DNA from: Eledone cirrhosa
Lineage: Eukaryota
Reading direction: 5' to 3'
Length of the DNA: 64,000 nucleotides
NCBI GenBank assembly: GCA_964016885.1
Contig: OZ024741.1
Location: forward strand, 233,492,001-233,556,000
Below the pieces are notes generated by a model that had not been told where the DNA came from, did not search any database, and saw only the letters and a program-made list of their open reading frames with translations. A program made the translations under genes and the position numbers. Shown here one piece after another: positions 36,201 through 60,007 of the stretch (position 1 is its first letter; each line of letters opens with the position of its first letter).

Positions 36201-37340
36201 TTCAAAACGTCTGAGCAGGTTGGTGAGGCTCTTGCACCCTCCTCCCCTATCCACTAGCCCCACACAATCCCAGCGTGCATCCAAGATACTGTTCCAGTCG
36301 CCCACTAACACTAAAGAGCGGGACGTTCCAAGAAAGGTCTCTAGATGTCTGAAGAAATCTGGTCGTCTTGCCCCTGTTTGGCCGTAGATGGCTACTAGCC
36401 TGAAAGCATTGCCTTCGCTGCCGGTCACGTCTACACCACCGACTTACCTTCTGGGTCTAGGAATATGGCCCGTATGGCGAGATCCAAGCCTCTCCGAAAA
36501 AGTACGGCAACCCCCTCCCCCCGATCCTGGACGGCTGGGAGATATGTATATATCGTAGCCGCCGAAGATCGGTGCGAAGGCTTGTGCTTCGGAGATTCTT
36601 GTCTCGCTGATGGCCACCACATCTATGTTTAGTGACCTGAGGTTGTTGAGCAGGTGACCCTGCTTCCAAGATGACCCCAGGCCACGTGCATTTATACTGC
36701 CTATTCTGAGTACGGCCATGTTGGATGAGAAACGGGGCAAGTGAGAAAGGGTCACTTACTTTGATCGTGTGGTGAAGGGACAGTAGAACCGTCCCTTTCA
36801 CTGGTCATGAGTGTTTCCAAGAAGATGTCAGTGTATATCCTCTTGGTAACCGACCCTTTGAAGTCTCCAACTGCCTTGGGGGATTTTTGTTTTAAAGGTT
36901 TGTACTGTTCTATTGAGATTTCAATGATGCTTATGTTTGTTGGGAGAGTTCTTGGTGTTGGTGGGGTGTAGTAGTTTTTTTCTGTGATGTCTGTGTGCTG
37001 CTTTATATATTGTATGTGTTCTATTTTTGCCATGTTTATGGCTGTGTACTTTTTGGGGGGAGGGGTGATTTTGTTGCTGTTTGGTGTGTGTGTTTTGTTT
37101 TGTTTGCATTGTTGGTGATTTTGGTGATGCTGGTGGTGGTGTGGTAGTTGTTGGCGGTAGTGCTTATGGTGGTGATGGTGGTGGTGTTGCTGCAAATTTC
37201 CTTGCTGCCTTTACCCCTCTTTGTGTACCTTCGCTTTTGGAGAGTGAATCTAAGGGTTCGCTGTTACAGGTATCGATGTCATTGTTGATGTTTTCGTTGG
37301 TACAGTTGTTGGTGTTGTTGTTGTTGTTGTTTTCGTTGAT
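33252..37340 (-). mobile_element. L1-clade (Tx1-like) LINE: ORF1 3' part plus frameshifted ORF2
   Basis: EN motifs GSINARGL, ISETR, VGDWN, SYLDRVF, TDHK. RT motifs GKSPGLDGLP, FRTITLLNAEFKILAK, LDQSKAFDRVDH, AYSDDVT. C-terminal CPRC..ETVVHALIQC zinc knuckle. AATAAA followed by an (ATT)n tail. Confidence 0.93.
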
Positions 37341-38336: not shown

Positions 38337-41300
38337 TACAGTGTCTCTCGAAAAAGTATCCGACTTCTTTTTCTGTGGGATGTAATGGCGTTAGGAAGAC
38401 AGAAGTGTGTAGAGTGGAGCTGCATACATTCTTGTTTATGTATGGTTTATGGTGAGCTCACTGGATGCATCAGTATTTGAGATGCTGCAATATTTACTCA
38501 TTGCATTTTAATTTCACCCAATACTACCAACAAGTATCCTGACTTTCTAAATATCAGGATAACTGGAGATGAGATGTGGATGTACAGGTACCACCTGGAA
38601 ACCAAAGCTCAGTCATCACTGTGGAAACATTCAAAGTCTCCAAAGTCCAGAAACCATTTTACATGCAGAGCAAAACCAAGGTGATGCTAACAGTTTTCTT
38701 CGACTGCCAAGGCATTGTACATCATGAATTCACAGTAGGAGAAACAGTTACAAAGGGATAGTATCAGAAAGTCTTTGAGCATCATCACAATACAGTTCAG
38801 TGCAACTCATTCGTCAAATCTGCTTGGAAAAGAAAAGCATTTCATTCATTCACTAGGTTCCATATACTCCAGGCAGATCCTTTTGACTTTTGGTTGTTCC
38901 CAAAAATGTAGATGCCACAGAAAGCTTCCACTTTTAGAGGTGAGGGACTATCATGGGGATTATGATGGTGGAAATGAGAATACATCATGTGGACTGTGGT
39001 GGTAGAGGTGAGAGGACATCATGTGGACTGTGGTGGTAGAGGTGAGAGGACATCATGTGGACTGTGGTGGTAGAGGTGAGAGGACATCATGTGATCTGTG
39101 GTGGTAGAGGTGAGAGGACATCATGTGGACTGTGGTGGTAGAATAGAGAGGACATCATGTGATCTGTGGTGGTAGAGGTGAGAGGACATCATGTGGACTG
39201 TGGTGGTAGAGGTGAGAGGACATCATGTGGACTGTGGTGGTGGTAGAGGTGAGAGGACATCATGTGGACTGTGGTGGTAGAGGTGAGAGGACATCATGTG
39301 GACTGTGGTGGTAGAATAGAGAGGACATCATGTGATCTGTGGTGGTAGAGGTGAGAGGACATCATGTGGACTGTGGTGGTAGAGGTGAGAGGACATCATG
39401 TGATCTGTGGTGGTAGAGGTGAGAGGACATCATGTGGACTGTGGTGGTAGAGGTGAGAGGACATCATGTGGACTGTGGTGGTAGAGGTGAGAGGACATCA
39501 TATGGACTGTGGTGGTGGTAGAGGTGAGAGGACATCATGTGGACTGTGGTGGTAGAGGTGAGAGGACATCATGTGGACTGTGGTGGTAGAATAGAGAGGA
39601 CATCATGTGATCTGTGGTGGTAGAGGTGAGAGGACATCATGTGGACTGTGGTGGTAGAGGTGAGAGGACATCATGTGGACTGTGGTGGTGGTAGAGGTGA
39701 GAGGACATCATGTGGACTGTGGTGGTAGAGGTGAGAGGACATCATGTGGACTGTGGTGGTAGAATAGAGAGGACATCATGTGATCTGTGGTGGTAGAGGT
39801 GAGAGGACATCATGTGGACTGTGGTGGTAGAGGTGAGAGGACATCATGTGGACTGTGGTGGTGGTAGAGGTGAGAGGACATCATGTGGACTGTGGTGGTA
39901 GAGGTGAGAGGACATCATGTGGACTGTGGTGGTAGAGGTGAGAGGACATCATGTGGACTGTGGTGGTAGAGGTGAGAGGACATCATATGGACTGTGGTGG
40001 TGGTAGAGGTGAGAGGACATCATGTGGACTGTGGTGGTAGAGGTGAGAGGACATCATGTGGACTGTGGTGGTAGAGGTGAGAGGACATTGTGTGGACTGT
40101 GGTGGTAGAGGTGAGAGGACATCATGTGGACTGTGGTGGTAGAGGTGAGAGGACATTGTGTGGACTGTGGTGGTAGAGGTGAGAGGACATCATGTGGACT
40201 GTGGTGGTAGAGGTGAGAGGACATCATGTGATCTGTGGTGGTAGAGGTGAGAGGACATCATGTGGACTGTGGTGGTAGAGGTGAGAGGACATCATGTGAT
40301 CTGTGGTGGTAGAGGTGAGAGGACATTGTGTGGACTGTGGTGGTAGAGGTGAGAGGACATCATGTGGACTGTGGTGGTAGAATAGAGAGGACATCATGTG
40401 GACTGTGGTGGTAGAGGTGAGAGGACATCATGTGATCTGTGGTGGTAGAGGTGAGAGGACATCATGTGGACTGTGGTGGTGGTAGAGGTGAGAGGACATC
40501 ATGTGGACTGTGGTGGTAGAGGTGAGAGGACATCATGTGGACTGTGGTGGTAGAGGTGAGAGGACATTGTGTGGACTGTGGTGGTAGAGGTGAGAGGACA
40601 TCATGTGGACTGTGGTGGTAGAGGTGAGAGGACATCATGTGGACTGTGGTGGTAGAGGTGAGAGGACATCATGTGGACTGTGGTGGTGGTAGAGGTGAGA
40701 GGACATCATGTGGACTGTGGTGGTGGTAGAGGTGAGAGGACATCATGTGGACTGTGGTGGTAGAGGTGAGAGGACATCATGTGGACTGTGGTGGTAGAGG
40801 TGAGAGGACATTGTGTGGACTGTGGTGGTAGAGGTGAGAGGACATCATGTGGACTGTGGTGGTAGAGGTGAGAGGACATCATGTGGACTGTGGTGGTAGA
40901 GGTGAGAGGACATTGTGTGGACTGTGGTGGTAGAGGTGAGAGGACATTGTGTGGACTGTGGTGGTAGAGGTGAGAGGACATCATGTGGACTGTGGTGGTA
41001 GAGGTGAGAGGACATCATGTGGACTGTGGTGGTAGAGTTGAGAGGACATCATGTGATCTGTGGTGGTAGAGGTGAGAGGACATTGTGTGGACTGTGGTGG
41101 TAGAGGTGAGAGGACATCATGTGGACTGTGGTGGTAGAGGTGAGAGGACATCATGTGGACTGTGGTGGTAGAGGTGAGAGGACATCATGTGGACTGTGGT
41201 GGTGGTAGAGGTGAGAGGACATCATGTGGACTGTGGTGGTAGAGGTGAGAGGACATCATGTGGACTGTGGTGGTAGAGGTGAGAGGACATTGTGTGGACT

Positions 41301-44300
41301 GTGGTGGTAGAGGTGAGAGGACATCATGTGGACTGTGGTGGTAGAGGTGAGAGGACATTGTGTGGACTGTGGTGGTAGAGGTGAGAGGACATCATGTGGA
41401 CTGTGGTGGTGGTAGAGGTGAGAGGACATCATGTGGACTGTGGTGGTAGAGGTGAGAGGACATCATGTGGACTGTGGTGGTAGAGGTGAGAGGACATTAT
41501 GTGGACTGTGGTGGTAGAGGTGAGAGGACATCATGTGGACTGTGGTGGTAGAGGTGAGAGGACATCATGTGGACTGTGGTGGTAGAGGTGAGAGGACATT
41601 GTGTGGACTGTGGTGGTAGAGGTGAGAGGACATCATGTGGACTGTGGTGGTAGAGGTGAGAGGACATCATGTGGACTGTGGTGGTAGAGGTGAGAGGACA
41701 TCATGTGGAATGTGGTGGTAGAGGTGAGAGGACATTGTGTGGACTGTGGTGGTAGAGGTGAGAGGACATCATGTGGACTGTGGTGGTAGAGGTGAGAGGA
41801 CATCATGTGGACTGTGGTGGTAGAGGTGAGAGGACATCATGTGGACTGTGGTGGTAGAGGGGAGAGGACATCATGTGGACTGTGGTGGTGGTAGAGGTGA
41901 GAGGACATCATGTGGACTGTGGTGGTAGAGGTGAGAGGACATCATGTGGACTGTGGTGGTAGAGGTGAGAGGACATTGTGTGGACTGTGGTGGTAGAGGT
42001 GAGAGGACATCATGTGGACTGTGGTGGTAGAGGTGAGAGGACATCATGTGGACTGTGGTGGTACAGGTGAGAGGACATCATGTGGACTGTGGTGGTAGAG
42101 GTGAGAGGACATCATGTGGACTGTGGTGGTAGAGGTGAGAGGACATCATGTGATCTGTGGTGGTAGAGGTGAGAGGACATCATGTGGACTGTGGTGGTAG
42201 AGGTGAGAGGACATCATGTGGACTGTGGTGGTAGAGGTGAGAGGACATCATATGGACTGTGGTGGTGGTAGAGGTGAGAGGACATCATGTGGACTGTGGT
42301 GGTAGAGGTGAGAGGACATCATGTGGACTGTGGTGGTAGAGGTGAGAGGACATCATGTGATCTGTGGTGGTAGAGGTGAGAGGACATCATGTGATCTGTG
42401 GTGGTAGAGGTGAGAGGACATCATGTGGACTGTGGTGGTAGAATAGAGAGGACATCATGTGATCTGTGGTGGTAGAGGTGAGAGGACATCATGTGGACTG
42501 TGGTGGTAGAGGTGAGAGGACATCATGTGGACTGTGGTGGTGGTAGAGGTGAGAGGACATCATGTGGACTGTGGTGGTAGAGGTGAGAGGACATCATGTG
42601 GACTGTGGTGGTAGAGGTGAGAGGACATCATGTGGACTGTGGTGGTAGAGGTGAGAGGACATCATATGGACTGTGGTGGTGGTAGAGGTGAGAGGACATC
42701 ATGTGGACTGTGGTGGTAGAGGTGAGAGGACATCATGTGGACTGTGGTGGTAGAGGTGAGAGGACATTGTGTGGACTGTGGTGGTAGAGGTGAGAGGACA
42801 TCATGTGGACTGTGGTGGTAGAGGTGAGAGGACATTGTGTGGACTGTGGTGGTAGAGGTGAGAGGACATCATGTGGACTGTGGTGGTAGAGGTGAGAGGA
42901 CATCATGTGATCTGTGGTGGTAGAGGTGAGAGGACATCATGTGGACTGTGGTGGTAGAGGTGAGAGGACATCATGTGATCTGTGGTGGTAGAGGTGAGAG
43001 GACATTGTGTGGACTGTGGTGGTAGAGGTGAGAGGACATCATGTGGACTGTGGTGGTAGAATAGAGAGGACATCATGTGGACTGTGGTGGTAGAGGTGAG
43101 AGGACATCATGTGATCTGTGGTGGTAGAGGTGAGAGGACATCATGTGGACTGTGGTGGTGGTAGAGGTGAGAGGACATCATGTGGACTGTGGTGGTAGAG
43201 GTGAGAGGACATCATGTGGACTGTGGTGGTAGAGGTGAGAGGACATTGTGTGGACTGTGGTGGTAGAGGTGAGAGGACATCATGTGGACTGTGGTGGTAG
43301 AGGTGAGAGGACATCATGTGGACTGTGGTGGTAGAGGTGAGAGGACATCATGTGGACTGTGGTGGTGGTAGAGGTGAGAGGACATCATGTGGACTGTGGT
43401 GGTGGTAGAGGTGAGAGGACATCATGTGGACTGTGGTGGTAGAGGTGAGAGGACATCATGTGGACTGTGGTGGTAGAGGTGAGAGGACATTGTGTGGACT
43501 GTGGTGGTAGAGGTGAGAGGACATCATGTGGACTGTGGTGGTAGAGGTGAGAGGACATCATGTGGACTGTGGTGGTAGAGGTGAGAGGACATTGTGTGGA
43601 CTGTGGTGGTAGAGGTGAGAGGACATTGTGTGGACTGTGGTGGTAGAGGTGAGAGGACATCATGTGGACTGTGGTGGTAGAGGTGAGAGGACATCATGTG
43701 GACTGTGGTGGTAGAGTTGAGAGGACATCATGTGATCTGTGGTGGTAGAGGTGAGAGGACATTGTGTGGACTGTGGTGGTAGAGGTGAGAGGACATCATG
43801 TGGACTGTGGTGGTAGAGGTGAGAGGACATCATGTGGACTGTGGTGGTAGAGGTGAGAGGACATCATGTGGACTGTGGTGGTGGTAGAGGTGAGAGGACA
43901 TCATGTGGACTGTGGTGGTAGAGGTGAGAGGACATCATGTGGACTGTGGTGGTAGAGGTGAGAGGACATCATGTGGACTGTGGTGGTAGAGGTGAGAGGA
44001 CATCATGTGGACTGTGGTGGTAGAGGTGAGAGGACATCATGTGGACTGTGGTGGTAGAGGTGAGAGGACATTGTGTGGACTGTGGTGGTAGAGGTGAGAG
44101 GACATTGTGTGGACTGTGGTGGTAGAGGTGAGAGGACATCATGTGGACTGTGGTGGTGGTAGAGGTGAGAGGACATCATGTGGACTGTGGTGGTAGAGGT
44201 GAGAGGACATCATGTGGACTGTGGTGGTAGAGGTGAGAGGACATCATGTGGACTGTGGTGGTAGAGGTGAGAGGACATCATGTGGACTGTGGTGGTAGAG

Positions 44301-47300
44301 GTGAGAGGACATCATGTGGACTGTGGTGGTAGAGGTGAGAGGACATTGTGTGGACTGTGGTGGTAGAGGTGAGAGGACATCATGTGGACTGTGGTGGTAG
44401 AGGTGAGAGGACATCATGTGGACTGTGGTGGTAGAGGTGAGAGGACATCATGTGGACTGTGGTGGTAGAGGTGAGAGGACATTGTGTGGACTGTGGTGGT
44501 AGAGGTGAGAGGACATCATGTGGACTGTGGTGGTAGAGGTGAGAGGACATCATGTGGACTGTGGTGGTAGAGGTGAGAGGACATCATGTGGACTGTGGTG
44601 GTAGAGGGGAGAGGACATCATGTGGACTGTGGTGGTGGTAGAGGTGAGAGGACATCATGTGGACTGTGGTGGTAGAGGTGAGAGGACATCATGTGGACTG
44701 TGGTGGTAGAGGTGAGAGGACATTGTGTGGACTGTGGTGGTAGAGGTGAGAGGACATCATGTGGACTGTGGTGGTAGAGGTGAGAGGACATCATGTGGAC
44801 TGTGGTGGTAGAGGTGAGAGGACATCATGTGGACTGTGGTGGTAGAGGTGAGAGGACATTGTGTGGACTGTGGTGGTAGAGGTGAGAGGACATCATGTGG
44901 ACTGTGGTGGTAGAGGTGAGAGGACATCATGTGGACTGTGGTGGTAGAGGTGAGAGGACATTGTGTGGACTGTGGTGGTAGAGGTGAGAGGACATTGTGT
45001 GGACTGTGGTGGTAGAGGTGAGAGGACATTGTGTGGACTGTGGTGGTAGAGGTGAGAGGACATCATGTGGACTGTGGTGGTAGAGGTGAGAGGACATTGT
45101 GTGGACTGTGGTGGTAGAGGTGAGAGGACATCATGTGGACTGTGGTGGTAGAGGTGAGAGGACATCATGTGGACTGTGGTGGTAGAGGTGAGAGGACATC
45201 ATGTGGACTGTGGTGGTAGAGGTGAGAGGACATCATGTGGACTGTGGTGGTAGAGGTGAGAGGACATCATGTGGACTGTGGTGGTGGTAGAGGTGAGAGG
45301 ACATCATGTGGACTGTGGTGGTAGAGGTGAGAGGACATCATGTGGACTGTGGTGGTAGAGGTGAGAGGACATTGTGTGGACTGTGGTGGTAGAGGTGAGA
45401 GGACATCATGTGGACTGTGGTGGTAGAGGTGAGAGGACATCATGTGGACTGTGGTGGTAGAGGTGAGAGGACATCATGTGGACTGTGGTGGTAGAGGTGA
45501 GAGGACATCATGTGGACTGTGGTGGTAGAGGTGAGAGGACATCATGTGGACTGTGGTGGTGGTAGAGGTGAGAGGACATCATGTGGACTGTGGTGGTAGA
45601 GGTGAGAGGACATTGTGTGGACTGTGGTGGTAGAGGTGAGAGGACATCATATGGACTGTGGTGGTAGAGGTGAGAGGACATTGTGTGGACTGTGGTGGTA
45701 GAGGTGAGAGGACATCATGTGGACTGTGGTGGTAGAGGTGAGAGGACATCATGTGGACTGTGGTGGTAGAGGTGAGAGGACATCATGTGGACTGTGGTGG
45801 TAGAGGTGAGAGGACATTGTGTGGACTGTGGTGGTAGAGGTGAGAGGACATCATGTGGACTGTGGTGGTAGAGGTGAGAGGACATTGTGTGGACTGTGGT
45901 GGTAGAGGTGAGAGGACATTGTGTGGACTGTGGTGGTAGAGGTGAGAGGACATCATGTGGACTGTGGTGGTAGAGGTGAGAGGACATTGTGTGGACTGTG
46001 GTGGTAGAGGTGAGAGGACATCATGTGGACTGTGGTGGTAGAGGTGAGAGGACATTGTGTGGACTGTGGTGGTAGAGGTGAGAGGACATCATGTGGACTG
46101 TGGTGGTAGAGGTGAGAGGACATTGTGTGGACTGTGGTGGTAGAGGTGAGAGGACATCATGTGGACTGTGGTGGTAGAGGTGAGAGGACATCATGTGGAC
46201 TGTGGTGGTAGAGGTGAGAGGACATCATGTGGACTGTGGTGGTAGAATAGAGAGGACATCATGTGATCTGTGGTGGTAGAGGTGAGAGGACATCATGTGG
46301 ACTGTGGTGGTGGTAGAGGTGAGAGGACATCATGTGGACTGTGGTGGTAGAGGTGAGAGGACATCATGTGGACTGTGGTGGTAGAGGTGAGAGGACATCA
46401 TGTGGACTGTGGTGGTAGAGGTGAGAGGACATTGTGTGGACTGTGGTGGTAGAGGTGAGAGGACATTGTGTGGACTGTGGTGGTAGAGGTGAGAGGACAT
46501 CATGTGGACTGTGGTGGTAGAGGTGAGAGGACATTGTGTGGACTGTGGTGGTAGAGGTGAGAGGACATCATGTGAACTGTGGTGGTAGAGGTGAGAGGAC
46601 ATCATGTGGACTGTGGTGGTAGAATAGAGAGGACATCATGTGATCTGTGGTGGTAGAGGTGAGAGGACATCATGTGGACTGTGGTGGTAGAGGTGAGAGG
46701 ACATCATGTGGACTGTGGTGGTAGAGGTGAGAGGACATCATGTGGACTGTGGTGGTAGAGGTGAGAGGACACCATGTGGACTGTGGTGGTAGAGGTGAGA
46801 GGACATTGTGTGGACTGTGGTGGTAGAGGTGAGAGGACATTGTGTGGACTGTGGTGGTAGAGGTGAGAGGACATCATGTGGACTGTGGTGGTAGAGGTGA
46901 GAGGACATTGTGTGGACTGTGGTGGTAGAGGTGAGAGGACATCATGTGGACTGTGGTGGTAGAGGTGAGAGGACATCATGTGGACTGTGGTGGTAGAGGT
47001 GAGAGGACATCATGTGGACTGTGGTGGTAGAGGTGAGAGGACATCATGTGGACTGTGGTGGTAGAGGTGAGAGGACATTGTGTGGACTGTGGTGGTAGAG
47101 GTGAGAGGACATTGTGTGGACTGTGGTGGTAGAGGTGAGAGGACATCATGTGGACTGTGGTGGTAGAGGTGAGAGGACATCATGTGGACTGTGGTGGTAG
47201 AGGTGAGAGGACATCATGTGGACTGTGGTGGTAGAGGTGAGAGGACATCATGTGATCTGTGGTGGTAGAGGTGAGAGGACATCATGTGGACTCTGGTGGT

Positions 47301-47640
47301 AGAGGTGAGAGGACATTGTGTGGACTGTGGTGGTAGAATAGAGAGGACATCATGTGGACTGTGGTGGTAGAGGTGAGAGGACATTGTGTGGACTGTGGTG
47401 GTAGAGGTGAGAGGACATCATGTGATCTGTGGTGGTAGAGGTGAGAGGACATCATGTGGACTGTGGTGGTAGAGGTGAGAGGACATTGTGTGGACTGTGG
47501 TGGTAGAGGTGAAAGGACATTCTGAAGAAAGTTTTCCAAGCTTGCTTCTAACAGTGGAAAGAAAGAAAGAAAGAAAGGTATTTTGTGTTTGGAGTAAACA
47601 ATTTACTAAGTGAGAACTAGTTCTATCTTTATTATGACAG
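38337..47640 (+). mobile_element. Decayed mariner transposon split by an 8.5-kb satellite
   Basis: ITGDEMWMYRYHLETKAQSSLW and SKTKVMLTVFFDCQGIVHHEF precede the array; KDILKKVFQACF*QWKE follows it immediately. Confidence 0.75.
38982..47520. repeat. 34-bp satellite array, roughly 250 copies (GAGGACATCATGTGGACTGTGGTGGTAGAGGTGA)
   Basis: Directly visible, with 37-bp (+GGT) variants and a ~2.7-kb internal duplication. Confidence 0.98.
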
Positions 47641-47849: not shown

Positions 47850-48545
47850 ACTAACAGACAACTGAATGCTAGGTGTGTTTTCACAACTCAGCTATGGTAA
47901 CAATTGACTAACTGACTTCCACTGCTGAGAGCCAGAGATATGTTTTCACTGCTCAGCTAAGGTGACACTGACTAACAGACTGCTGAGGGCCAGAGGTGTG
48001 TTTTCACTGCTCAGCTAAGGTGACACTGACTAACAGACTGCTGAGGGCCAGAGGTGTGTTTTCACTGCTCAGCTAAGGTGATGCAGACTAACAGACTGCT
48101 GAGGGCCAGAGGTGTGTTTTCACTGCTCAGCTAAGGTGACACAGACTAACAGACTGCTGAGAGCCAGAGATATGTTTTCACTGCTCAGCTAAGGTGACAC
48201 TGACTAACAGACTGCTGAGGGCCAGAGGTGTGTTTTCACTGCTCAGCTAAGGTGACACTGACTAACAGACTGCTGAGGGCCAGAGGTGTGTTTTCACTGC
48301 GCAGCTAAGGTGACACTGACTAACAGACTGCTGAGGGCCAGAGGTGTGTTTTCACTGCTCAACTAAGGTGACACTGACTAACAGACTGCTGAGGGCCAGA
48401 GGTGTGTTTTCACTGCTCAGCTAAGGTGACACAGACTAACAGTCAGCTGAGGGCCAGAGGTGTGTTTTCAGTGCTCAGCTAAGGTAACACTGAATAACAC
48501 ACTGCTGCCAGCTCAGGGCCAGAAGTGTGTTTTCACAGTTCTGCT
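47850..48545. repeat. 58-bp minisatellite, ~11 copies
   Basis: Unit ctgctgagggccagaggtgtgttttcactgctcagctaaggtgacactgactaacaga. Confidence 0.95.
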
Positions 48546-51050: not shown

Positions 51051-52234
51051 TAGAAGCAGACACTTGCCCAAGGTGTCATGCAGTGGGAGTGAACCCAAAA
51101 CCATGTAGTTTTGAAACAAACTGCTTAACCACATGGCCATGCCTACACCTGCCTATATGTGTGTATTTGTGTGTGCATGTGTGTGTGTGTCTGTCAGTCT
51201 GTGTGTGTATGTGTGTACACGCGTGTATATGTGAGTGTGTTTGTCCAGGTCTGTGTTTATTTATACTGTTTGTTTATGTCACATAACTTAATGGTTTACC
51301 AAATAAAGTCCGATAAATTTTAGTATCAAATTTTAAAATAAACCTAACCCCATGAAGGTTGTGCCTCAGTAAAGCTCAAGTGTATAGTTCAGGTACGTCT
51401 ATCAACATTAAGATCATAGTTAAATCCACTGGCAATGTAAACGTTTTTGTTAGTTTTAGAAAGTTTTTCCATCAGAATTTTTATGTACTCATTTAGAAAT
51501 ATAATTTCATTCATGCAATGATGGCCATGTATTAGCCCAGTTATGTCATTTATCACTTTATTTTTATTAATAATTTCAATAAAGAATGGTTCTAGCTCTT
51601 TAGATTTGTATATGTTGAGATCTGTTCTTGGTTTAAAGAGCAGTCATTTGCTCACTTACAACAGGACTCCTACTTTAATTGTTTCAGTTGGGGATTCCAT
51701 CAGCAGCAACAATAAAAGCAAAAACAGAGCAGCAGCAGCACCACCACCACCACAACAACAACAGCACCACCACCACAACAACAACAACAGCAGCAGTAGC
51801 AACAACAACAACATTGTCTTTCACCATTATCACATTTTATTATTATCAGTTAGACAATTCCTTGATTGATTTCTCTATTCCTGTGGCTTTAAATCATACT
51901 CGTTATCTCTAGATAGATTATGTGGGTTTTTATTTCATTTATTTTGTTTGTTTTGGGTGGTGTTTTGGCGGTGGGGGGGATAGGCAGACAATAATTTCAG
52001 TAACATCTATCATTCAGTATTCAGTAGAGGCAGCCATTATAACTACAATGGCATTTTATTTACCTCTTCTTGTTGGGTGATAATGCTGCATTCTATCAAA
52101 ACTTTGAATTTAGCCAAGTCACTCGTCTTTAGATATGAAAAAAATATAAACACACAGCATCACATTTTTAGAATGTGGGGTGGAGGCTTCTACAAATATA
52201 AGAAAAGAAGAAAAGAGATAGAGAAGGTATCCTG

Positions 52235-52296
<62 letters not shown>

Positions 52297-52317
52297 CAGG
52301 ATACCTTCTCTCTCTCT

Positions 52318-52352
<35 letters not shown>

Positions 52353-52514
52353 ATATGTTGAAAAGGTAACACACTAGAGAGAGATACAGTGCCTATCAAT
52401 AAAACGGGGAAAAACCACCAGTGTATAGAATCTATAACCTATGAAAGGCAGAGTATAGGCACGATAATTAAAAATATAAATTAAAGCGTAAATAAATACC
52501 TCTATAACTATATA

Positions 52515-52596
52515 ACACACGTACAAATCCAAATTGATCTGTTTCGCCAGTAAGTTGTTGACAGAAATGAAATAACCCAGGTTCATCAGCGTGTGT
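52515..52596 (-). ncRNA. Type I hammerhead ribozyme
   Basis: Minus strand: acacacg CTGATGA acc...ggc GAAA cagatc aatttg gatttg TA cgtgtgt. Perfect 7-bp stem I, 6-bp stem III, imperfect stem II. Confidence 0.75.
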
Positions 52597-53047
52597 AAGG
52601 CCATACATTTCAGACAACACTAAGAGAATTTTTAAAACGACCGTCCATCTACACGTGGGAAAGAAAAGTCACAGCGTATTTAAGGGCAGTGAACCAGTGG
52701 CCTCTGGGGGACGAGCTGCTAGAAAGGGCAGCCCAAAACCACTCAGAGAAGAGCTTTAAAGAGCTCAGGATTTCCTCTCGTTTGAGCACATTATTTACAG
52801 GCAACGGCAAGAGTCTATGGCTCCGTTAATGTATCGTGATATTTCGCTCCTTATAACAGTCTTTCCTCTGTCTTTCTGTTTGGTTGAGCACACTTCTCTG
52901 GGTGGTTTTGGGCTGCCCTTTCTAGCAGCTCGTCCCCCAGAGGCCACTGGTTCACTGCCCTTAAACACGCTGTGACTTCTCTCTCCCACGTGTAGATGGA
53001 CGGTCGCTTTAAAAATTCTCTTAGTGTTGTCTGAAATGTATGGTCTT

Positions 53048-53133
53048 ACACACGCTGATGAACCAACCTGGGTTATTTCATTTCTGTCAACAACTTACTG
53101 GCGAAACAGATCAATTTGGATTTGTACGTGTGT
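53048..53133 (+). ncRNA. Type I hammerhead ribozyme
   Basis: acacacg CTGATGA acca...tggc GAAA cagatcaatttggatttg TA cgtgtgt; predicted cleavage after GTA at 53126. Confidence 0.75.
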
Positions 53134-53384
53134 TATATAGTTATAGAGGTATTTATTTACGCTTTAATTTATATTTTTAATTATCGTGTCTATACTCTGC
53201 CTTTCATAGGTTATAGATTCCATACACTGGTGGTTTTTCCCTGTTTTATTGATAGCGCACTGTATCTCTCCCTAGTGTGTTACCTTTTCAACATATTGTA
53301 TTTTAAAGAGCTCAGGATTTCCTCTCCTTTGAGTACATTATTTACAGGGAACGGCGAGAGTCTATGGCTCCGTTAATGTCTCGT

Positions 53385-53426
<42 letters not shown>

Positions 53427-53470
53427 GTGAGGAATAACATGGTTGACAGTACAAACAAGGATATTTATTT

Positions 53471-53581
53471 ACAGTCTTACAATTGTTTCCATGATAGAAT
53501 TGTCTATAAATTGCTAAATACTGGAGACAGTATAACTCAATTTACAATACATCTAAGTTCAATCATTTCATCAGAAACTAT
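53471..53581 (-). ncRNA. Type I hammerhead in the PLE 3' pseudo-LTR (sense to the ORF)
   Basis: Reverse complement of 56875-56985. Confidence 0.75.
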
Positions 53582-54237
53582 TAAGAAATATAAAATATAT
53601 GCGTAACGGTAAATTTAAAAATTCAAATTACTACATCAATAATAGTATTAATGATGAAAAAATAAAGGAAGGGGGACAGATGGAAATGAGAGAGAAAGAA
53701 AGAAAATGACGAAAGAAGGAATGAAGATATAGTTAAATGTGTAACCGGCAAAAGTTACGAAATCAAACTATCACATCAAAATAAATATAATAATAAAGAT
53801 ATATACAGAAAGAGAGAAGGGGGGATATAGCATAGGCAAAGAGGAAGGATAAGTAAGGAAGATGAGAAAGAAATAGAGGAAGGTTAAGAGGGATGAGGAA
53901 GCATAGGGGTTAGAAAATAATCATGAATATGGGGATATGAAGAAGAAAGAAAATAAAATAAACATACATTACTATGTAAAATAGCTAGTTTGATATGTAT
54001 TATATTATAGGATAAAATGATCGAGATAAAATTAGTTTAAGTGGAGAAATACAAAGACAAATGGTGAAAGGTGTATATATATAAGATAATAAGTGATGTA
54101 ATTACAAATAAAAATAAAAATAATGATGTTAATACAAATGTTTTTAAGTTATTCTTACGTAATTATGAAATTTGTGATAATTTGATATCGTAATAAGTGC
54201 TAAAAGTATAAAAAGGAATGAGGAGTAGAAAATATAG

Positions 54238-56487
54238 TTAAGTTGGTCTAAAGTTCAGGAACTTGGTTGCTGATTTGTGCCGGCAAAAGATAGTTCTCTC
54301 AATTCTGCTGTTAAGAAGGGTTTTACTAAAATTAAGAATTTGGAAGAGCTCCATATTACAGAGCCTACAATGGGACATACCAGTTTGATAGGCTTTAGCA
54401 GTTGACAATATTTTCCAACTGATCTTGTATTTAATGTCTGCATTCTTGAGTTGCCATATTTTATTGGCAAGAGTTGTATTTGATTGATTCTTATTAATCA
54501 TAGAATGTCTGTGCACGTACCACCGTTTTTTGAAAACACCAGCTGTGGAACCAATGTAATACCATGCGAAGCTACCTGAGTTGATAGTACACGAGTATAC
54601 TACGTTTTCTCAAGGCATCTGTTTAGTAGAGGGCAATTGTCGAGTAAGTGGCAATTGCATAGAAATGCTTTCCTATGCGCCGGTTCTACTATATGATTTT
54701 GAAGATTGTTATGTATGGGCTGCGAATTAGGTTTGTTGGTGTATTGTGGTGGTGTTCTTTGGCGTGTATTTGGTTGCGATGATGTAATATGTGTGTATTC
54801 TGTATTAGGTGATATGGAACTTATATGGGGGCTACTTTGATTATGAATTCTTATGTAGTTAATTTTGTGAATGTGCGATTCTATGTTGATAGCAGTGGAG
54901 TATGGTAGTTTTATAGTTTTTCTATTAAAGATTTTATATTTATGTATTTTAGGGAAGTGTTTGTCAACTAATTTAATGAAAGTGAGAGGAAGCTTAGTTT
55001 TAATAGAGGAGTTAAACATTGGATTAAACCATAAGTAGTTTCTATTTCTGTATCTCCTATGTCCGCTAGTGGTATTAGTATTAGCATTTTGTTTATTTAA
55101 ATTAGGTATATGCTGCCTATTTATGCGTTTAGACCTAGGTTTGTTGATTCTATGGTTGTGGGAAGTATCGTTAACATTAAGTGTCTTGTTATTTTTTGTA
55201 TCAGGTATGTATTTGAGTCGTTCTTTATGGCCTGCCTTAAGTAAAGCTAAGTTATAGTAGCTAGCGTGTTCATTAAAAATTTCATGGTTAGAGGATAGGC
55301 GCGAGATTCGAAGGGATATACTATGCGCTATGGAGTTAATTATGGATCTAGGATGGTTCGAGTTATAGTCAATGTAAGCTAAATTTTCCTTATTTTTATG
55401 GAAGGGTTCTATTAGTCCTGAGTTAAGGTTAAAAAATACGTCCAAGAAGTTGACTTTTTTAGAGTTGGGTTCGAAAGTAATGCTCAGGCCTAAATTATTA
55501 AAGAATTTTCTAATCTTCTTCCTTAATCTTTCTAAGTTTTGCCTATTTACGTTTCTAGCTAAAAGTAGAGTATCATCTCTATAGATTCCACCTTGTAAGT
55601 TACCAAATTCCCTATGTAAGAAATATGCTATATAAATTCCAACCAAGTCTGTGATCTGGGCTGAGTCGTTCGATCCCATAGTAATATCGAAGTTATTCAG
55701 TCTATTTTTTCTCTCCCAGTAGCTGTTGTCGAATTTAATGATAGTTCGTCTAGCGGCTAGTATTATTTTAATTTCATCTGCTGAAAGATCCGAATGATTT
55801 TTGGCAAAGGATAATGCCTTATTAAGGGTGACTGGGGAGATAGAAGAGTAGTAGTCATTTATGTCAAATTGTATAAAGTCGGACGATTCTTTATTGTCTA
55901 ATGAGTTGAACCAGTCTATTGCTTCACTTGTGTTACCCCAGAGCTTGATAGTTAGTTGTTTCTTAATTTGTGGTAATATTCTATCTAGTATAAACTTACT
56001 AATTCTACCAATATCTGATTTTGAAGGACATATCAATCTAATAGTAGGGTTGGTTTCGAAGTTACATGTATGATCTTTCAGATTAAAAGTGGGTTCACAA
56101 GGTGTAAGAGGATCGGTTCTATCGGATATTTTAAGTTTTTTTACTATGTTAATACCTTTTATGTTAATGCTGTTGAGTGTAGACTCTGTAGTTTTCTTGC
56201 ATTTTTTATGTAAGTCGCGGCGTATAAAATTGTTGTATGTATTAAGGCTCATGGTGTATACATTAGATGTTTTATCTGCTTTTACAATGATACCATTAGT
56301 GGCACGTAATTTTCTTATAAGTACATTGATGTTATTCTGTAGTTTGTTGTGGTGGGTACGTTTTTTGAATTTAATTTCCTTTATCATGTTCATGAGATCA
56401 AGTTCAAAGGCATCGAGATGTGGATTGCCTGGTGGGTTTTTGCAGGATTTGAATCCATATTTTTCGCTGGTAGATCCATTAATTTGA
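54238..56487 (-). CDS. PLE polyprotein: reverse transcriptase + Cys-rich linker + GIY-YIG endonuclease (one frameshift near 54605; N-terminus truncated)
   Basis: Motifs YGFKS..PP, VKADKT, IRLICP, FDINDYYSSI, ITMGS, IYRDD, VNFLDV, SNHP, then CNC-x5-CP-x4-C. After the shift: NVVYSCTINSGSFAWYYIGST..FKKRW, KISWKIL, CRLC..E, LLNSR, CRHK. Confidence 0.9.
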
Positions 56488-56874
56488 TCACTATTATTAT
56501 CTTTTCTCTCTTCTTCATATCCCCATATTCATGATTATTTTCTATCCCCCTATGCTTCCTCATCCCTCTTAACCTTCCTCTATTTCTTTCTCATCTTCCT
56601 TACTTATCCTTCCTCTTTGCCTATGCTATATCCCCCCTTCTCTCTTTCTGTATATATCTTTATTATTATATTTATTTTGATGTGATAGTTTGATTTCGTA
56701 ACTTTTGCCGGTTACACATTTAACTATATCTTCATTCCTTCTTTCGTCATTTTCTTTCTTTCTCTCTCATTTCCATCTGTCCCCCTTCCTTTATTTTTTC
56801 ATCATTAATACTATTATTGATGTAGTAATTTGAATTTTTAAATTTACCGTTACGCATATATTTTATATTTCTTA

Positions 56875-56985
56875 ATAGTTTCTGATGAAATGATTGAACT
56901 TAGATGTATTGTAAATTGAGTTATACTGTCTCCAGTATTTAGCAATTTATAGACAATTCTATCATGGAAACAATTGTAAGACTGT
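56875..56985 (+). ncRNA. Type I hammerhead in the inverted pseudo-LTR
   Basis: atagttt CTGATGA aatgat...(~78-nt stem II including tgtaaattg/caatttata and atactg/cagtat)...atcatg GAAA caattg TA agactgt. Confidence 0.75.
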
Positions 56986-57188
56986 AAATAAATATCCTTG
57001 TTTGTACTGTCAACCATGTTATTCCTCACTTTTTTATTACTCCAAGATATATTTACATAGGAATACAAGTGAAGTCATAAAATCGTAAACCTCTTGTTGA
57101 GTCACACAGCACCGTACGCTTAAACTGTCCATGATAAGTACTTTTCATAGACTCTTATCGGATTACCATTAACGATTTATTGTTATCC

Positions 57189-57257
<69 letters not shown>

Positions 57258-57491
57258 ATTTACATATACATAAAGTCACAGATATATATGTATATGTAAA
57301 TCTTTATATTTAATAATCTCCCGTTGGGTTGAAATGCAATTTGGGCTGCGCTTTCTAGCAACCAGCCTACTCGCCGTAAGCAACTAATCACATTCTTTCT
57401 AACTTGACCACTGCCACGTCACGATTCTTAGCCATTTTTAAAATCTATTTCTGGCGGGATCGCTTTGGAAAATTAACTGTCCTATTGAGTT

Positions 57492-57570
57492 TGTCTCCTG
57501 ATGAGTTCGATACTCGAGATTTATCCTTAATAGGATATCTCAAAATACGAACGAAACCACGGTAGAGATA
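57492..57570 (+). ncRNA. Type I hammerhead ribozyme, intact core
   Basis: tgtctc CTGATGA gttcg...gagat.tatcct taat aggata tctc...cgaac GAAA ccacgg TA gagata; predicted cleavage after 57564. Confidence 0.85.
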
Positions 57571-57851
57571 TAATTACGGTATGTACGCATTTCTTCGAAC
57601 TTTAAATTTATACCTAATTGTGTATGGTTGACGGTATATTTGGTCAGTTTCTACATGCTGTTGAAATGTTGGGTAAATACTCTATTGTGGTCAACCGCGA
57701 AGAGGCTGCTTTCGGTTATTTATCAGATATTTCTTCATTGGAGCCTTTATTCTTATAGCCTGGTCTAATTGATTTTTTATATGGTTAATTATGCTAATTG
57801 GGAGAGGAAATAGTATATATATCTTATCTTATCTAATTTATTATATATATA

Positions 57852-58470
57852 TCTTCTCAATGGAAATCCGCTAAGATTTTCCGTTTATTCTGGAGCATGA
57901 AACGGCGGTGAGGGCACATATAGTAAGTACTGCGAATTTTTTTTTATTTATTTTAAAACATTTTCTCTATTTGCTAGACCTTGATTTTATATGTTCTGGC
58001 TTGTTAATTTATTAACCCGCCATAGAACCACATTGGCATACGGTTGGATAATACTTGTTTCCCTATATGTATTTTTTACATGTAGGAATTCATACTTTAT
58101 TATTATTAATCTCCCCCTAAGGTAGAGATCAAATTTTGGCCGTTTGGACTGCTGCTATTTCTAGTGGCAGGACATTGACCTGTCCACCCTGCCTTTTGTC
58201 TTTGCACACGGCACCAGACAGAATTATTTCTTCCATCATTCGCTCTCATTTCGGAATGGTTTTGTATGGCGTCAGTTTGTGATTTGAACTCGGGAATTTT
58301 ATATTCTCCGAGAGAGAAGAGCCCTCTGAAGATTGCTCCCTTCTCAATAGATATCCGCTTGGATTTTCCGTTTATTCTGGAGCATGAATCCGCGGTAAAG
58401 GCACATATAGTAAGTACTGCGAATTTTTTAAAATTTATTTTAAAACATTTTCTCTATTTGCTAGACCTTG

Positions 58471-58477
<7 letters not shown>
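57852..58477 (+). mobile_element. Non-coding PLE-like module with ~135-bp direct terminal repeats, ending in (TA)n
   Basis: 57853-57990 is repeated at 58340-58477; the repeat carries the 3' half of a hammerhead. Confidence 0.7.
58321..58402 (+). ncRNA. Type I hammerhead with one core substitution
   Basis: gccct CTGAAGA ttgctcc...ggagcat GAAT ccgcgg TA aaggc. The sister repeat at ~57892-57915 retains GAAA and agggc. Confidence 0.65.
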
Positions 58478-58525
<48 letters not shown>

Positions 58526-58567
58526 AATAGTAATAAACCAAAGATATAACACTATAGCATCACTATT

Positions 58568-58625
58568 TATTTCATCATATATTTCTGGGATGCTAAATTA
58601 TAGCAAACCTTCTTCAGACAAAATA
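58568..58625 (-). ncRNA. Decayed type I hammerhead
   Basis: Minus strand: tattttgt CTGAAGA aggtttgcta taatt tagcatccca GAAA tata TG atgaaata. The cleavage-site H is mutated to G. Confidence 0.5.
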
Positions 58626-59113
58626 CAATATTAGATGTATAAAATGTTATATGACATACTCACAAGAGTGACCTATCAGATCAATTCCAAATGGGTATGT
58701 GATTCAAAATCTCAAAATTTTCTAGTATGTAATGTTATTGGGAAATATAAAAATAAACAAATAAATAATAAGGACAGTGAATTTAAATGCTTTATATGTT
58801 TTTTTTTAAATAGCCTACTTAGATTGGCCAGCAAAAAAAAATTAAATGTGTATATCTTATTATTAAAGGGATATATATATATATATATTACACAATTTAC
58901 CCTTAAAAATCTCACACATTTAAACTTACACATACACTCACACTTATAGCAATACTAATTCACATACACATTCCACTTTATGTTCATACTCGTTACCAAG
59001 ACTACCTAATGGTTTTCTTGTTTTCCCTCGTCATTTTCGTCTTTTTTGTGTGTATGTGTCTTTACTGAACCTTCTTTCTGTTTCTCCATTGTGATTCTGT
59101 CTCTGTTTTGTAC

Positions 59114-59140
59114 TCCTGAAGAAGGGCTTAAGCCCGACAC
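59114..59140 (+). ncRNA. Decayed minimal hammerhead core
   Basis: CTGAAGA a gggc ttaa gccc GACAC; stems I and III are lost. Confidence 0.35.
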
Positions 59141-59666
59141 ATTTTATTCTTCTTTCCATTATAAAGCATGAAACTAATAAGACTTTAGAAGAAGTTATTT
59201 TGTAGATGTTCACCAATTTAGAATGAGTTAATGGATATAGATATATATGTGTTGAGAAATGAAATAAAACAAATTAAGATGCTGTAAAGGAATACACAGA
59301 CCTATGGCTGAAGTTAGATGCCACGGCCACGGTAATTGTTTGATAGCTACATTTTAGAAAGTTTGTTGAGCAAAATCAAGAGATGTTTACCTTCTGGTGT
59401 CGAGATTCAAAGAGGGAGATTTTCGAAGAGAAGCGAGAATTTTTCCCTTTCGGCAGAACTTGAAATACATCTCCCTATGCTGGTAGTGATTGGCTGAACT
59501 GACCCAAACAACGGATGGAGAATGTATTCAAGAGTCATCAGAATGTAGGTCACTACAAGACTTTTTGTACATCACTTTGTTGTTTCATTGAACTATATAC
59601 ACAAAGAAAAACAAGATGGCGTAGGACAGAGCAAAGGAGAGGCACAAAACAAAGAAAAGAATCCCA

Positions 59667-59709
59667 GTCACTGAAGAGGTCACAGAATGTGTGACGAAAG
59701 AACTTTGAC
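59667..59709 (+). ncRNA. Minimal type I hammerhead
   Basis: gtca CTGAAGA g gtcac agaatgt gtgac GAAA gaac TT tgac. Confidence 0.6.
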
Positions 59710-60007
59710 AATATATGAACAACCGTCCGGTTGTGGAACCAACCAACCGGAAATTTATAAATTTTTTAATTTATAATAAATTGGAGTGAAAGCAACTGGT
59801 GCGTGTGTTTCTTATTGGCAACATGACCCTCCCAAAGTATAACAATATCGGTTTCAACACACGTTTTCAGATAAAGAATCTTGCTAAACAAATTCAGAAA
59901 CGATATATATATATATATATATATCGTTCATGGGAAGAGAAAAATACCACTCAGGGAGGATGGGAGTAATCTAAATTCCTACACACACACACTTACATAT
60001 ATATGTA

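What the first reader, a model, noticed from the sequence alone, without database searches (positions are those of the whole stretch)
52200..59920. Stack of six or more distinct hammerhead-bearing modules threaded on (TA)n arrays around a near-intact Penelope-like element
Seen: between successive (TA)n tracts lie the modules 52348-53388, 53423-57190 (coding PLE), ~57310-57830, 57852-58477, ~58520-58870, ~58890-59235 and ~59250-59900. Each contains at least one CTGANGA...GAAA..TH hammerhead core or a decayed version (nine motifs in 7.7 kb), but otherwise they share little sequence. Known: PLEs carry type I hammerheads in their pseudo-LTRs, and some clades prefer microsatellites; retrozymes are non-autonomous hammerhead retroelements. 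Inference: a (TA)n hotspot was hit repeatedly by one autonomous PLE type and by a diverse set of non-coding, ribozyme-containing elements (retrozyme-like, or solo pLTRs of other PLE families).
Basis: partly seen in the sequence, partly recalled or inferred. Interest (0 to 1): 0.8.

Follow-up and report, generated by a model that had tools for sequence, protein, structure and literature searches.

The report
Hammerhead retroelements piled into TA repeats
Eight separate mobile-element insertions are stacked in one TA microsatellite; three of them are non-coding repeats with a predicted self-cutting hammerhead RNA that carry the same integration scars as Penelope-like jumping genes and so are likely moved by them, and a sample suggests such hammerheads, which the standard RNA library misses, number roughly a quarter of a million in this genome.

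Summary
The stack is real but mixed. It holds eight insertions from eight high-copy families: a 5'-truncated, frameshifted Hydra-clade Penelope-like element (PLE); three 3' stubs of other coding PLEs; three non-coding tandem-unit hammerhead elements (487-655 nt); and one solo LTR with no hammerhead. Of ten CTGANGA words, six fold as complete type I hammerheads (0.015 expected under the stricter descriptor, which passes five), two are decayed copies, one is dead family-wide and one is chance. PLE hammerheads, (TA)n targeting by Hydra PLEs and animal retrozymes are all published. New here: the non-coding families show the PLE integration signature (fixed 3' ends in (TA)n, 5' inversions, and one long plus one short 'tail' end in 59 of 66 inverted inserts), with 3-7 nt TA microhomology at all 8 ends. 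Many hammerheads have 37-109-nt stem II regions that Rfam misses. A 600-kb genome sample gave 52 complete motifs (about 170,000-360,000 genome-wide), so this pile is a dense but ordinary example. Cleavage, RNA and circles are untested. The scan has noted similar PLE-type tandem repeats in other genomes.

The parts
52237..52348 (.). (TA)n tract with a small palindromic insert end (arms 52211-52265 / 52266-52320)
52350..52751 (-). M1 inverted, 5'-truncated arm, ending at the family's short 3' end; hammerhead core at 52589
52755..53388 (+). M1 non-coding tandem unit (547 nt plus 88-nt terminal redundancy), ending at the long 3' end
53048..53133 (+). M1 type I hammerhead: stem I 7 bp, stem II region 41 nt, stem III 7 bp, predicted cut after 53126
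53423..56494 (-). M2 main body: 5'-truncated Hydra-clade PLE (RT, CxCX5C linker, C-terminal GIY-YIG nuclease, 3' UTR)
54600..56528 (-). RT-linker frame, 642 codons stop to stop (its first dozen codons come from the inverted arm); frameshift near 54605
54241..54609 (-). GIY-YIG nuclease frame, 123 codons
53471..53581 (-). M2 hammerhead in the 3' end: stem I 7 bp, stem II region 78 nt, palindromic stem III, predicted cut at 53478
56495..57192 (+). M2 inverted terminal copy (98-99% to 53423-53961) plus a 156-nt tail; second hammerhead at 56875-56985
57255..57832 (+). M3 non-coding tandem-unit element (unit about 655 nt): 37-nt inverted piece 57255-57291, main arm 57287-57832
57492..57570 (+). M3 type I hammerhead: stem I 6 bp, stem II region 48 nt, predicted cut after 57564
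57853..58479 (+). M4 non-coding tandem-unit element (487 nt plus 140-nt redundancy); hammerhead at 58321-58402 decayed here, complete in 12 of 29 copies
58522..58870 (-). M5: 3' stub of a second coding Hydra-type PLE family; hammerhead core at 58617 decayed here, complete in 13 of 23 copies
58888..59184 (+). M6: 3' stub of an older coding PLE (GIY-YIG-like frame upstream in the 3 longest copies); dead hammerhead remnant at 59116; continues at 59563-59598 beyond the LTR
59185..59557 (-). M7a: solo LTR of an LTR element about 1.6-1.7 kb long, with a 5-bp target duplication at 59180-59184 and 59558-59562; no hammerhead
59599..59902 (+). M7b: 3' stub of a coding Neptune-like PLE; minimal hammerhead at 59667-59709

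Best explanation
The region is a stack of eight independent insertions from eight repeat families, seven of them Penelope-type with fixed 3' ends at (TA)n, and the three non-coding hammerhead families among them are likely copied in trans by a (TA)n-targeting Penelope-like reverse transcriptase-nuclease. Shown: family membership, coding or non-coding context, end positions, inversions, tails, microhomology and hammerhead folds. Inferred: the PLE nuclease nicks a (TA)n tract; the freed TA-ended strand pairs with a short UAU(AU) word at one of two fixed internal sites of the RNA; copying runs towards the 5' end and stops early, runs past one unit (so the template is a multimer or a circle), or flips to give an inverted arm that starts at the other site. 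Each insertion leaves (TA)n on both sides, so the target is renewed and different families accumulate. The hammerheads, most with a palindromic stem III, would cut multimeric RNA as dimers into unit lengths; they do not define the inserted ends, which lie about 55-290 nt downstream of the predicted cut. The helper is most likely a Hydra-clade PLE. The LTR landed later inside M6 by its own route.
For: Every module has 39-40 scored copies at about 76-99% identity out of 1,400-5,000 first-look candidates. M1, M3, M4: in 51, 41 and 54 distinct copies the 5' side was a truncation, a head-to-tail junction or an inversion, with no shared upstream body and no sense-strand PLE coding sequence abutting; 3' ends ran into (TA)n in 44 of 51, 37 of 41 and 47 of 54. 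The units have no frame over 97 codons and no significant score against Hydra RT or nuclease profiles. Inverted inserts carry one long and one short end in 28 of 29 (M1), 10 of 11 (M3), 12 of 16 (M4), 9 of 10 (M4's sister family M4b) and 6 of 6 (coding M2) cases. This matches the PLE 'tail', described as unique to PLEs and traced to two internal start sites (PMC11167929, main text read; PMC8557442 passages). All 8 ends of the four non-coding families share 3-7 nt with (TA)n, against 4-9% of positions by chance. Hammerhead pairing survives between subfamilies 73-80% identical that were found by BLAST, with compensatory changes in stems I and II. M4's T-T mismatch at the base of stem II is the form listed for most published Hydra hammerheads. 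One copy of M4b is fused directly to a Hydra RT-thumb fragment inside a single (TA)n-bounded insert (L331). Hydra PLEs insert in (TA)n (PMC8557442 section 11 and supplement).
Against: No cleavage, transcript or circle was observed. Only the top 40 candidates per search were scored, so a rare coding-linked form of M1, M3 or M4 could be missed. No sequence homology links these units to any coding PLE end in hand. The Neptune-like M7b family also targets (TA)n and shows two ends, so the helper's clade is not fixed. The L331 chimera is 1 of 40 top matches and could be a chance neighbour. In the one reconstituted PLE, copying began at a site not homologous to the cut DNA and did not need hammerhead cleavage, which differs from the priming inferred here. 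Minimum-energy folds of the five window hammerheads are only 1.1-2.7 SD below shuffles and do not all adopt the active fold. In Xenopus 8 of 9 tested retrozyme dimers did not cleave. M1's stem II base is weak (3 of 29 copies pass the stricter descriptor; 27 hits under the relaxed one).
Confidence: 0.8

Rival explanations
1. M1, M3 and M4 are only the 3' ends (solo pseudo-LTRs) of coding PLE families whose long copies were not sampled.
For: This is exactly what M5, M6 and M7b turned out to be. Only 2 of 52 random hammerheads have coding sequence upstream in the same block, so long copies are rare. Searches score only 40 candidates.
Against: The same sampling found coding bodies for M5 (3 of 23), M7b (at least 10 of 30 motifs) and M6 (3 of 29) but for 0 of 146 copies of M1, M3 and M4; wherever these extend past one unit they join their own 3' end at a fixed junction. 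Extra searches with 3' halves only gave the same result.
Confidence: 0.1
2. The non-coding units spread as satellite DNA or by a DNA rolling-circle route, and their hammerheads are passengers.
For: They are head-to-tail units; the 2026 preprint proposes that a PLE end can seed local tandem arrays.
Against: Copies are dispersed over many contigs as about 0.4-2.6-mers with variable 5' ends, fixed 3' ends in (TA)n, inversions and tails identical in kind to the coding PLE. Hammerhead pairing is kept across diverged subfamilies.
Confidence: 0.06
3. The hammerhead motifs are chance matches, or the stack is an assembly artefact.
For: One of ten cores (59541) is chance; Rfam scores none; the reads were not checked.
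Against: 5 complete folds against 0.015 expected; 52 in 600 kb against 0 in 1.72 Mb of shuffles. Every junction follows its family's rule, including a 5-bp duplication around the LTR.
Confidence: 0.02

Closest known systems
Hydra-clade Penelope-like elements (Craig et al. 2021, PMC8557442; passages, section 11 and supplement parts read; includes Hydra-1_Obim from Octopus bimaculoides)
   Same: M2 has DKT, the CxCX5C linker, a C-terminal GIY-YIG with CxxC and CxH motifs, a 3' hammerhead, an inverted 5' copy and (TA)n flanks; M5 has the same linker and nuclease type.
   Different: The Hydra hammerheads listed in their supplement have stem II regions of about 25 nt or less; here 28-31 nt (M5) and 78 nt (M2). 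The tail is 156 nt against the 30-40 bp they describe. No sequence alignment to Hydra-1_Obim was run; motifs were compared by eye.
Animal non-LTR retrozymes (Cervera and de la Pena 2020, PMC7229834, two result parts read; Li, Clavereau and Pollet 2026, 10.64898/2026.07.22.740005, introduction to discussion read)
   Same: Non-coding, AT-rich head-to-tail units with one type I hammerhead each, living beside autonomous PLEs; the 2026 preprint argues they are non-autonomous PLE derivatives.
   Different: Here copies are mostly dispersed partial tandems with 5' inversions, two fixed 3' ends and strict (TA)n targeting; the parts read do not describe these features. Hammerheads are of the PLE type with long stem II, not canonical. 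Circular RNA is untested here.
Minimal hammerheads of metazoan PLEs (Cervera and de la Pena 2014, PMC4209133, results and discussion read)
   Same: Short stem I, palindromic stem III, an extra or mismatched base at the foot of stem II, many heterogeneous families, mostly single motifs from truncated PLEs.
   Different: Stem II regions up to 109 nt with internal loops; estimated number (about 260,000) above the counts given in the parts read (2,000-9,000 per genome; 126,247 in axolotl in the 2020 paper).
PLE tail and internal initiation (Frangieh et al. 2024, PMC11167929, main text read; Arkhipova et al. 2013, PMC3846280, passages)
   Same: Two alternative 3' ends; an optional extension on one of two inverted ends; PLE ends can move other sequence in trans.
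   Different: Tails are 86-156 nt, occur on non-coding elements, and both ends share 3-7 nt with the (TA)n target, whereas the anole element began at a non-homologous site.

Membership tests
Hydra-clade PLE (M2) | Single RT plus C-terminal GIY-YIG nuclease | tested here: met
   homologue P0002 (38% identity, E 1e-121) spans both domains in one frame. Pfam gave no significant RT or nuclease hit for the window proteins
Hydra-clade PLE (M2) | DKG changed to DKT; CxCX5C linker; CxxC and CxH around the conserved E and N | tested here: met
   against the description
Hydra-clade PLE (M2) | N-terminal RWK motif | tested here: inconclusive
   window copy is truncated before it; homologues P0002 and P0004 have RWR or RFR there
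Hydra-clade PLE (M2) | Falls inside the Hydra clade in an RT tree | not tested
   reference proteins were seen only in a paper supplement; no tree built
Hydra-clade PLE (M2) | 3' hammerhead and (TA)n insertion | tested here: met
Animal non-LTR retrozyme (M1, M3, M4) | Non-coding head-to-tail unit with one type I hammerhead | tested here: met
Animal non-LTR retrozyme (M1, M3, M4) | No LTR, primer-binding site or polypurine tract architecture | tested here: met
   ends are variable at 5' and fixed at 3'; no internal domain between repeats
Animal non-LTR retrozyme (M1, M3, M4) | [quoted passage not shown] | tested here: inconclusive
   a few copies exceed two units (L072, L077, L118) but both motifs were not scored pairwise; most copies are under 2 units
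Animal non-LTR retrozyme (M1, M3, M4) | Self-cleavage and abundant circular RNA | not testable with these tools
   no RNA run was listed
Type I hammerhead ribozyme | CUGANGA, GAAA and UH joined by three stems with compensatory change | tested here: met
   six window motifs; compensatory changes between M3 and M4 subfamilies
Type I hammerhead ribozyme | Rfam hammerhead model score | tested here: not met
   no match at gathering score in the window or in 150 kb holding 42 descriptor hits; no hammerhead family at E up to 10 in the region
Neptune-like PLE (M7b) | CX2-5CxxC linker before a C-terminal GIY-YIG | tested here: met
   translation of L037 and L040 upstream of the module; clade name rests on that motif only, no tree
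LTR retroelement (M7a) | Direct terminal repeats starting TG, primer-binding site, polypurine tract, short target duplication | tested here: met
   two-LTR copies 1.6-1.7 kb apart in 6 distinct loci among 29 sampled, PBS-like and PPT words, 5-bp duplication; the LTR ends in TAA rather than CA; internal coding capacity not tested

The most novel reading that the evidence does not exclude
This genome carries the densest hammerhead population yet reported for an animal (about 87 per Mb, some 260,000 motifs, dozens of families), mostly long-stem-II forms invisible to Rfam, and its non-coding families are true SINE-like partners of Hydra-clade PLEs that are primed by base-pairing to nicked (TA)n at two fixed internal sites. 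That would be direct genomic evidence for how animal retrozymes are mobilised, and the long stem II would be a conserved protein-binding or regulatory domain.
Probability: 0.4. Interest if true: 0.7.

Novelty: new variant of a known kind. Interest (0 to 1): 0.52.

Why it matters
Who mobilises animal retrozymes is open: the 2026 preprint argues for PLEs from co-occurrence and sequence likeness and says the mechanism remains unknown. Here non-coding hammerhead units carry the PLE-specific tail and inversion scars next to coding PLEs with the same target, which makes the question testable with defined RNAs, start sites and a (TA)n substrate. The long stem II means standard models undercount ribozymes in such genomes (Rfam scored 0 of 42). 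The single locus is otherwise an ordinary pile-up.

Tried and rejected
Rfam at gathering score and at E up to 10: no hammerhead family, only low-complexity microRNA matches. Pfam did not recognise the window RT or nuclease; the Atlas gave unnamed eukaryotic clusters with a minority RVT_1 share, used as a lead only. The core at 59541 was rejected as a hammerhead. The idea that M7a is a Helenus or Ajax element was looked at (PMC10886601 passages) and not pursued; no tRNA or 5S test was run. The idea that L055/L331 is a surviving deletion intermediate of the M4 lineage was tested: 39 other top matches lacked the RT part, and an apparent linker-like reading in M4b scored nothing against a Hydra nuclease profile, so it is kept only as a single chimera. 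No earlier notes exist for this genome. Literature searches that found no description of these families or of long-stem-II hammerheads in octopods: octopus + hammerhead ribozyme, cephalopod + hammerhead + ribozyme (82), octopus + Penelope + microsatellite (59), retrozyme + microsatellite + insertion (78), non-autonomous + Penelope-like + pLTR + hammerhead (62), Penelope-like + hammerhead + palindromic + stem II (38), type I hammerhead + extended stem II (97). Lunse et al. 2017 (PMC5785218) is not held and may describe such variants; Repbase and Dfam were not available; the preprint's supplements were not seen.
Full report
Setting. The window lies on contig C2 of a 3.0-Gb animal assembly. No call names the organism; that it resembles an octopod is my recalled impression and was used only to choose literature searches. 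Modules are called M1-M7b from left to right.

Observation. The (TA)n tracts and modules are present. Ten CTGANGA words lie in 52200-59920. I wrote a type I hammerhead descriptor that allows a stem II region up to about 100 nt. It passes five window motifs, all inside the finding, against a mean of 0.015 in 1000 Markov shuffles of the region without its TA runs. A relaxed version passes six, again none in the other 56 kb of the window. Rfam scores none.

The coding element. M2 has a 642-codon RT-linker frame and a 123-codon nuclease frame separated by a frameshift near 54605. It shows DKT, a CxCX5C linker and CxxC/CxH motifs, which are the marks of the Hydra clade; that clade is short, carries hammerheads and inserts in (TA)n (PMC8557442 section 11; supplement tables). 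Homologues of 790-806 residues have an N-terminal part that the window copy lacks. The 5' side is an inverted copy of the 3' end (513 nt at 98%) with a 156-nt extension. So it is a truncated, broken copy in the usual PLE layout.

The short modules. Each was searched in the genome; all gave 39-40 scored copies from 1,400-5,000 first-look candidates, which are not copy numbers. M5 continues upstream into a Hydra-type nuclease in 3 of 23 copies. M7b continues into an RT and nuclease with a CX4CxxC linker, Neptune-like, in at least 10 of 30 motifs (the print was limited to 10). M6 continues into a decayed GIY-YIG-like frame in its 3 longest of 29 copies (only one gave a BLAST hit, E 5e-4), and its hammerhead is dead across the family. 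M7a is a solo LTR: the family has two-LTR copies, PBS-like and polypurine words, and the window copy sits in M6 between two copies of a 5-bp word.

The non-coding families. M1, M3 and M4 have units of about 545, 655 and 487 nt with one hammerhead each and no frame over 97 codons. To avoid selecting for tandem copies I repeated the searches with 3' halves only. Across 51, 41 and 54 distinct copies, the 5' side was an inversion (34, 12, 23), a TA or similar run (12, 15, 26) or unrelated sequence (5, 14, 5); the last group shared no abutting upstream sequence, and its two nuclease hits were antisense (a few M3 rows were cut from the print, the totals were not). Copies longer than one unit always joined their own 3' end. 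The units score nothing against Hydra RT and nuclease profiles and share only one 20-nt match with each other.

Integration signature. Each family has two fixed 3' ends, 86 (M1), 101 (M3), 111 (M4) and 156 nt (M2) apart. Inverted inserts have one of each in 28 of 29, 10 of 11, 12 of 16 and 6 of 6 cases, and 9 of 10 for a sister family of M4. Pairs with an end at neither site were not counted. This is the PLE tail, which Frangieh et al. traced to two internal start sites and call unique to PLEs. All 8 ends of the four non-coding families share 3-7 alternating A/T bases with the target, where 4-9% of positions would by chance; M7b shares 4; the M2 test had one copy per class and gave 1 base. The ends lie about 55-290 nt downstream of the predicted cut, so cleavage does not make the inserted end. 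I infer priming by pairing of nicked (TA)n to the RNA, which differs from the non-homologous start reported for the anole element.

Hammerhead quality. Stem III is palindromic in M2-M5, the dimer-type form (PMC4209133). Between subfamilies found by BLAST at 73-80% identity, cores are unchanged and stems I and II keep pairing through substitutions. Against this, free folding is only modestly better than shuffles (z -1.1 to -2.7), M1 has a weak stem II base, and most Xenopus retrozyme dimers did not cleave in the 2026 preprint. Activity is predicted, not shown.

How special is the stack? In 698 kb of fetched loci the relaxed descriptor gave 222 hits in 35 clusters, against 0 in 651 kb of shuffles. 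In 60 evenly spaced 10-kb stretches from 11 large contigs it gave 52 hits, against 0 in 1.72 Mb of shuffles; 48 of 52 had a TA run within 500 nt downstream (29% for random positions), 31 of 52 had a stem II region over 20 nt, and 2 of 60 stretches held 5 or 6 hits. The bootstrap range is 57-122 per Mb, or 170,000-360,000 for the assembly if small contigs behave alike. Rfam scored none in the 15 stretches holding 42 of these hits. Only 2 of 52 had PLE coding sequence upstream in the same block, so most are short stubs whose parent cannot be told.

Comparison. PLE hammerheads (PMC4209133), retrozymes (PMC7229834), their proposed PLE origin (preprint), Hydra PLEs in (TA)n including one from Octopus bimaculoides, and trans-mobilisation by PLE ends (PMC3846280 passages) are published. 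A 2026 octopus repeat annotation lists 893 recently active unclassified SINE families and no hammerhead appeared in my searches for it (PMC13282606 passages); a squid genome paper reports 235 Rfam hammerheads. I found no description of long-stem-II, tail-bearing, (TA)n-targeted non-coding families in seven searches listed under Tried and rejected, but one key paper and the repeat databases were out of reach. Earlier scan notes from other genomes describe similar PLE-type tandem repeats and stubs; they are unchecked.

Verdict. The value lies in the family-level signature and the genome-wide count, not in this locus. Interest 0.52.

Noticed in passing
L331:1490-2230 (G000:C2 near 371.94 Mb; also L055:1-750): A single (TA)n-bounded insert in which a 310-bp Hydra RT-thumb fragment (62% identical to the window RT) is fused to a 5'-truncated copy of the M4 sister family; possibly a template switch by a Hydra enzyme.
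   Followed up: partly
L332-L360: M4b, a young sister family of M4 (478-nt unit, copies 96-99% identical, 3,827 first-look candidates) with a complete hammerhead and the same two end positions; a good substrate for cleavage and expression tests.
   Followed up: partly
L153, L157, L163, L164, L172: Two-LTR copies, 1.6-1.7 kb, of the element whose solo LTR is M7a; LTR starts TG and ends TAA; internal part has CAG-rich repeats; coding capacity not tested.
   Followed up: partly
L361-L420: Dozens of further hammerhead families with stem II regions of 12-109 nt, often as inverted pairs with one near and one far TA end.
   Followed up: partly
window 3175-3215: A hammerhead-like remnant (core, 4-bp stem II, GAAA) resembling the M6 motif; does not pass the descriptor.
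   Followed up: no
window 52211-52320: A 110-nt palindrome whose centre is a (TA)n run, at the left edge of the stack.
   Followed up: no
window 23245-23330 and 24580-24640: Two copies of another repeat that starts right after a (TA)n run; the same start follows TA runs in several fetched loci.
   Followed up: no
window 17480-19566 (+) and 33520-36443 (-): Two broken LINE-type elements with AP-endonuclease and RT matches.
   Followed up: partly
window 38935-47520: A 34-bp satellite, about 250 copies at 94% identity; also a 36-bp array at 14946-16176 and a 58-bp array at 47921-48507.
   Followed up: no
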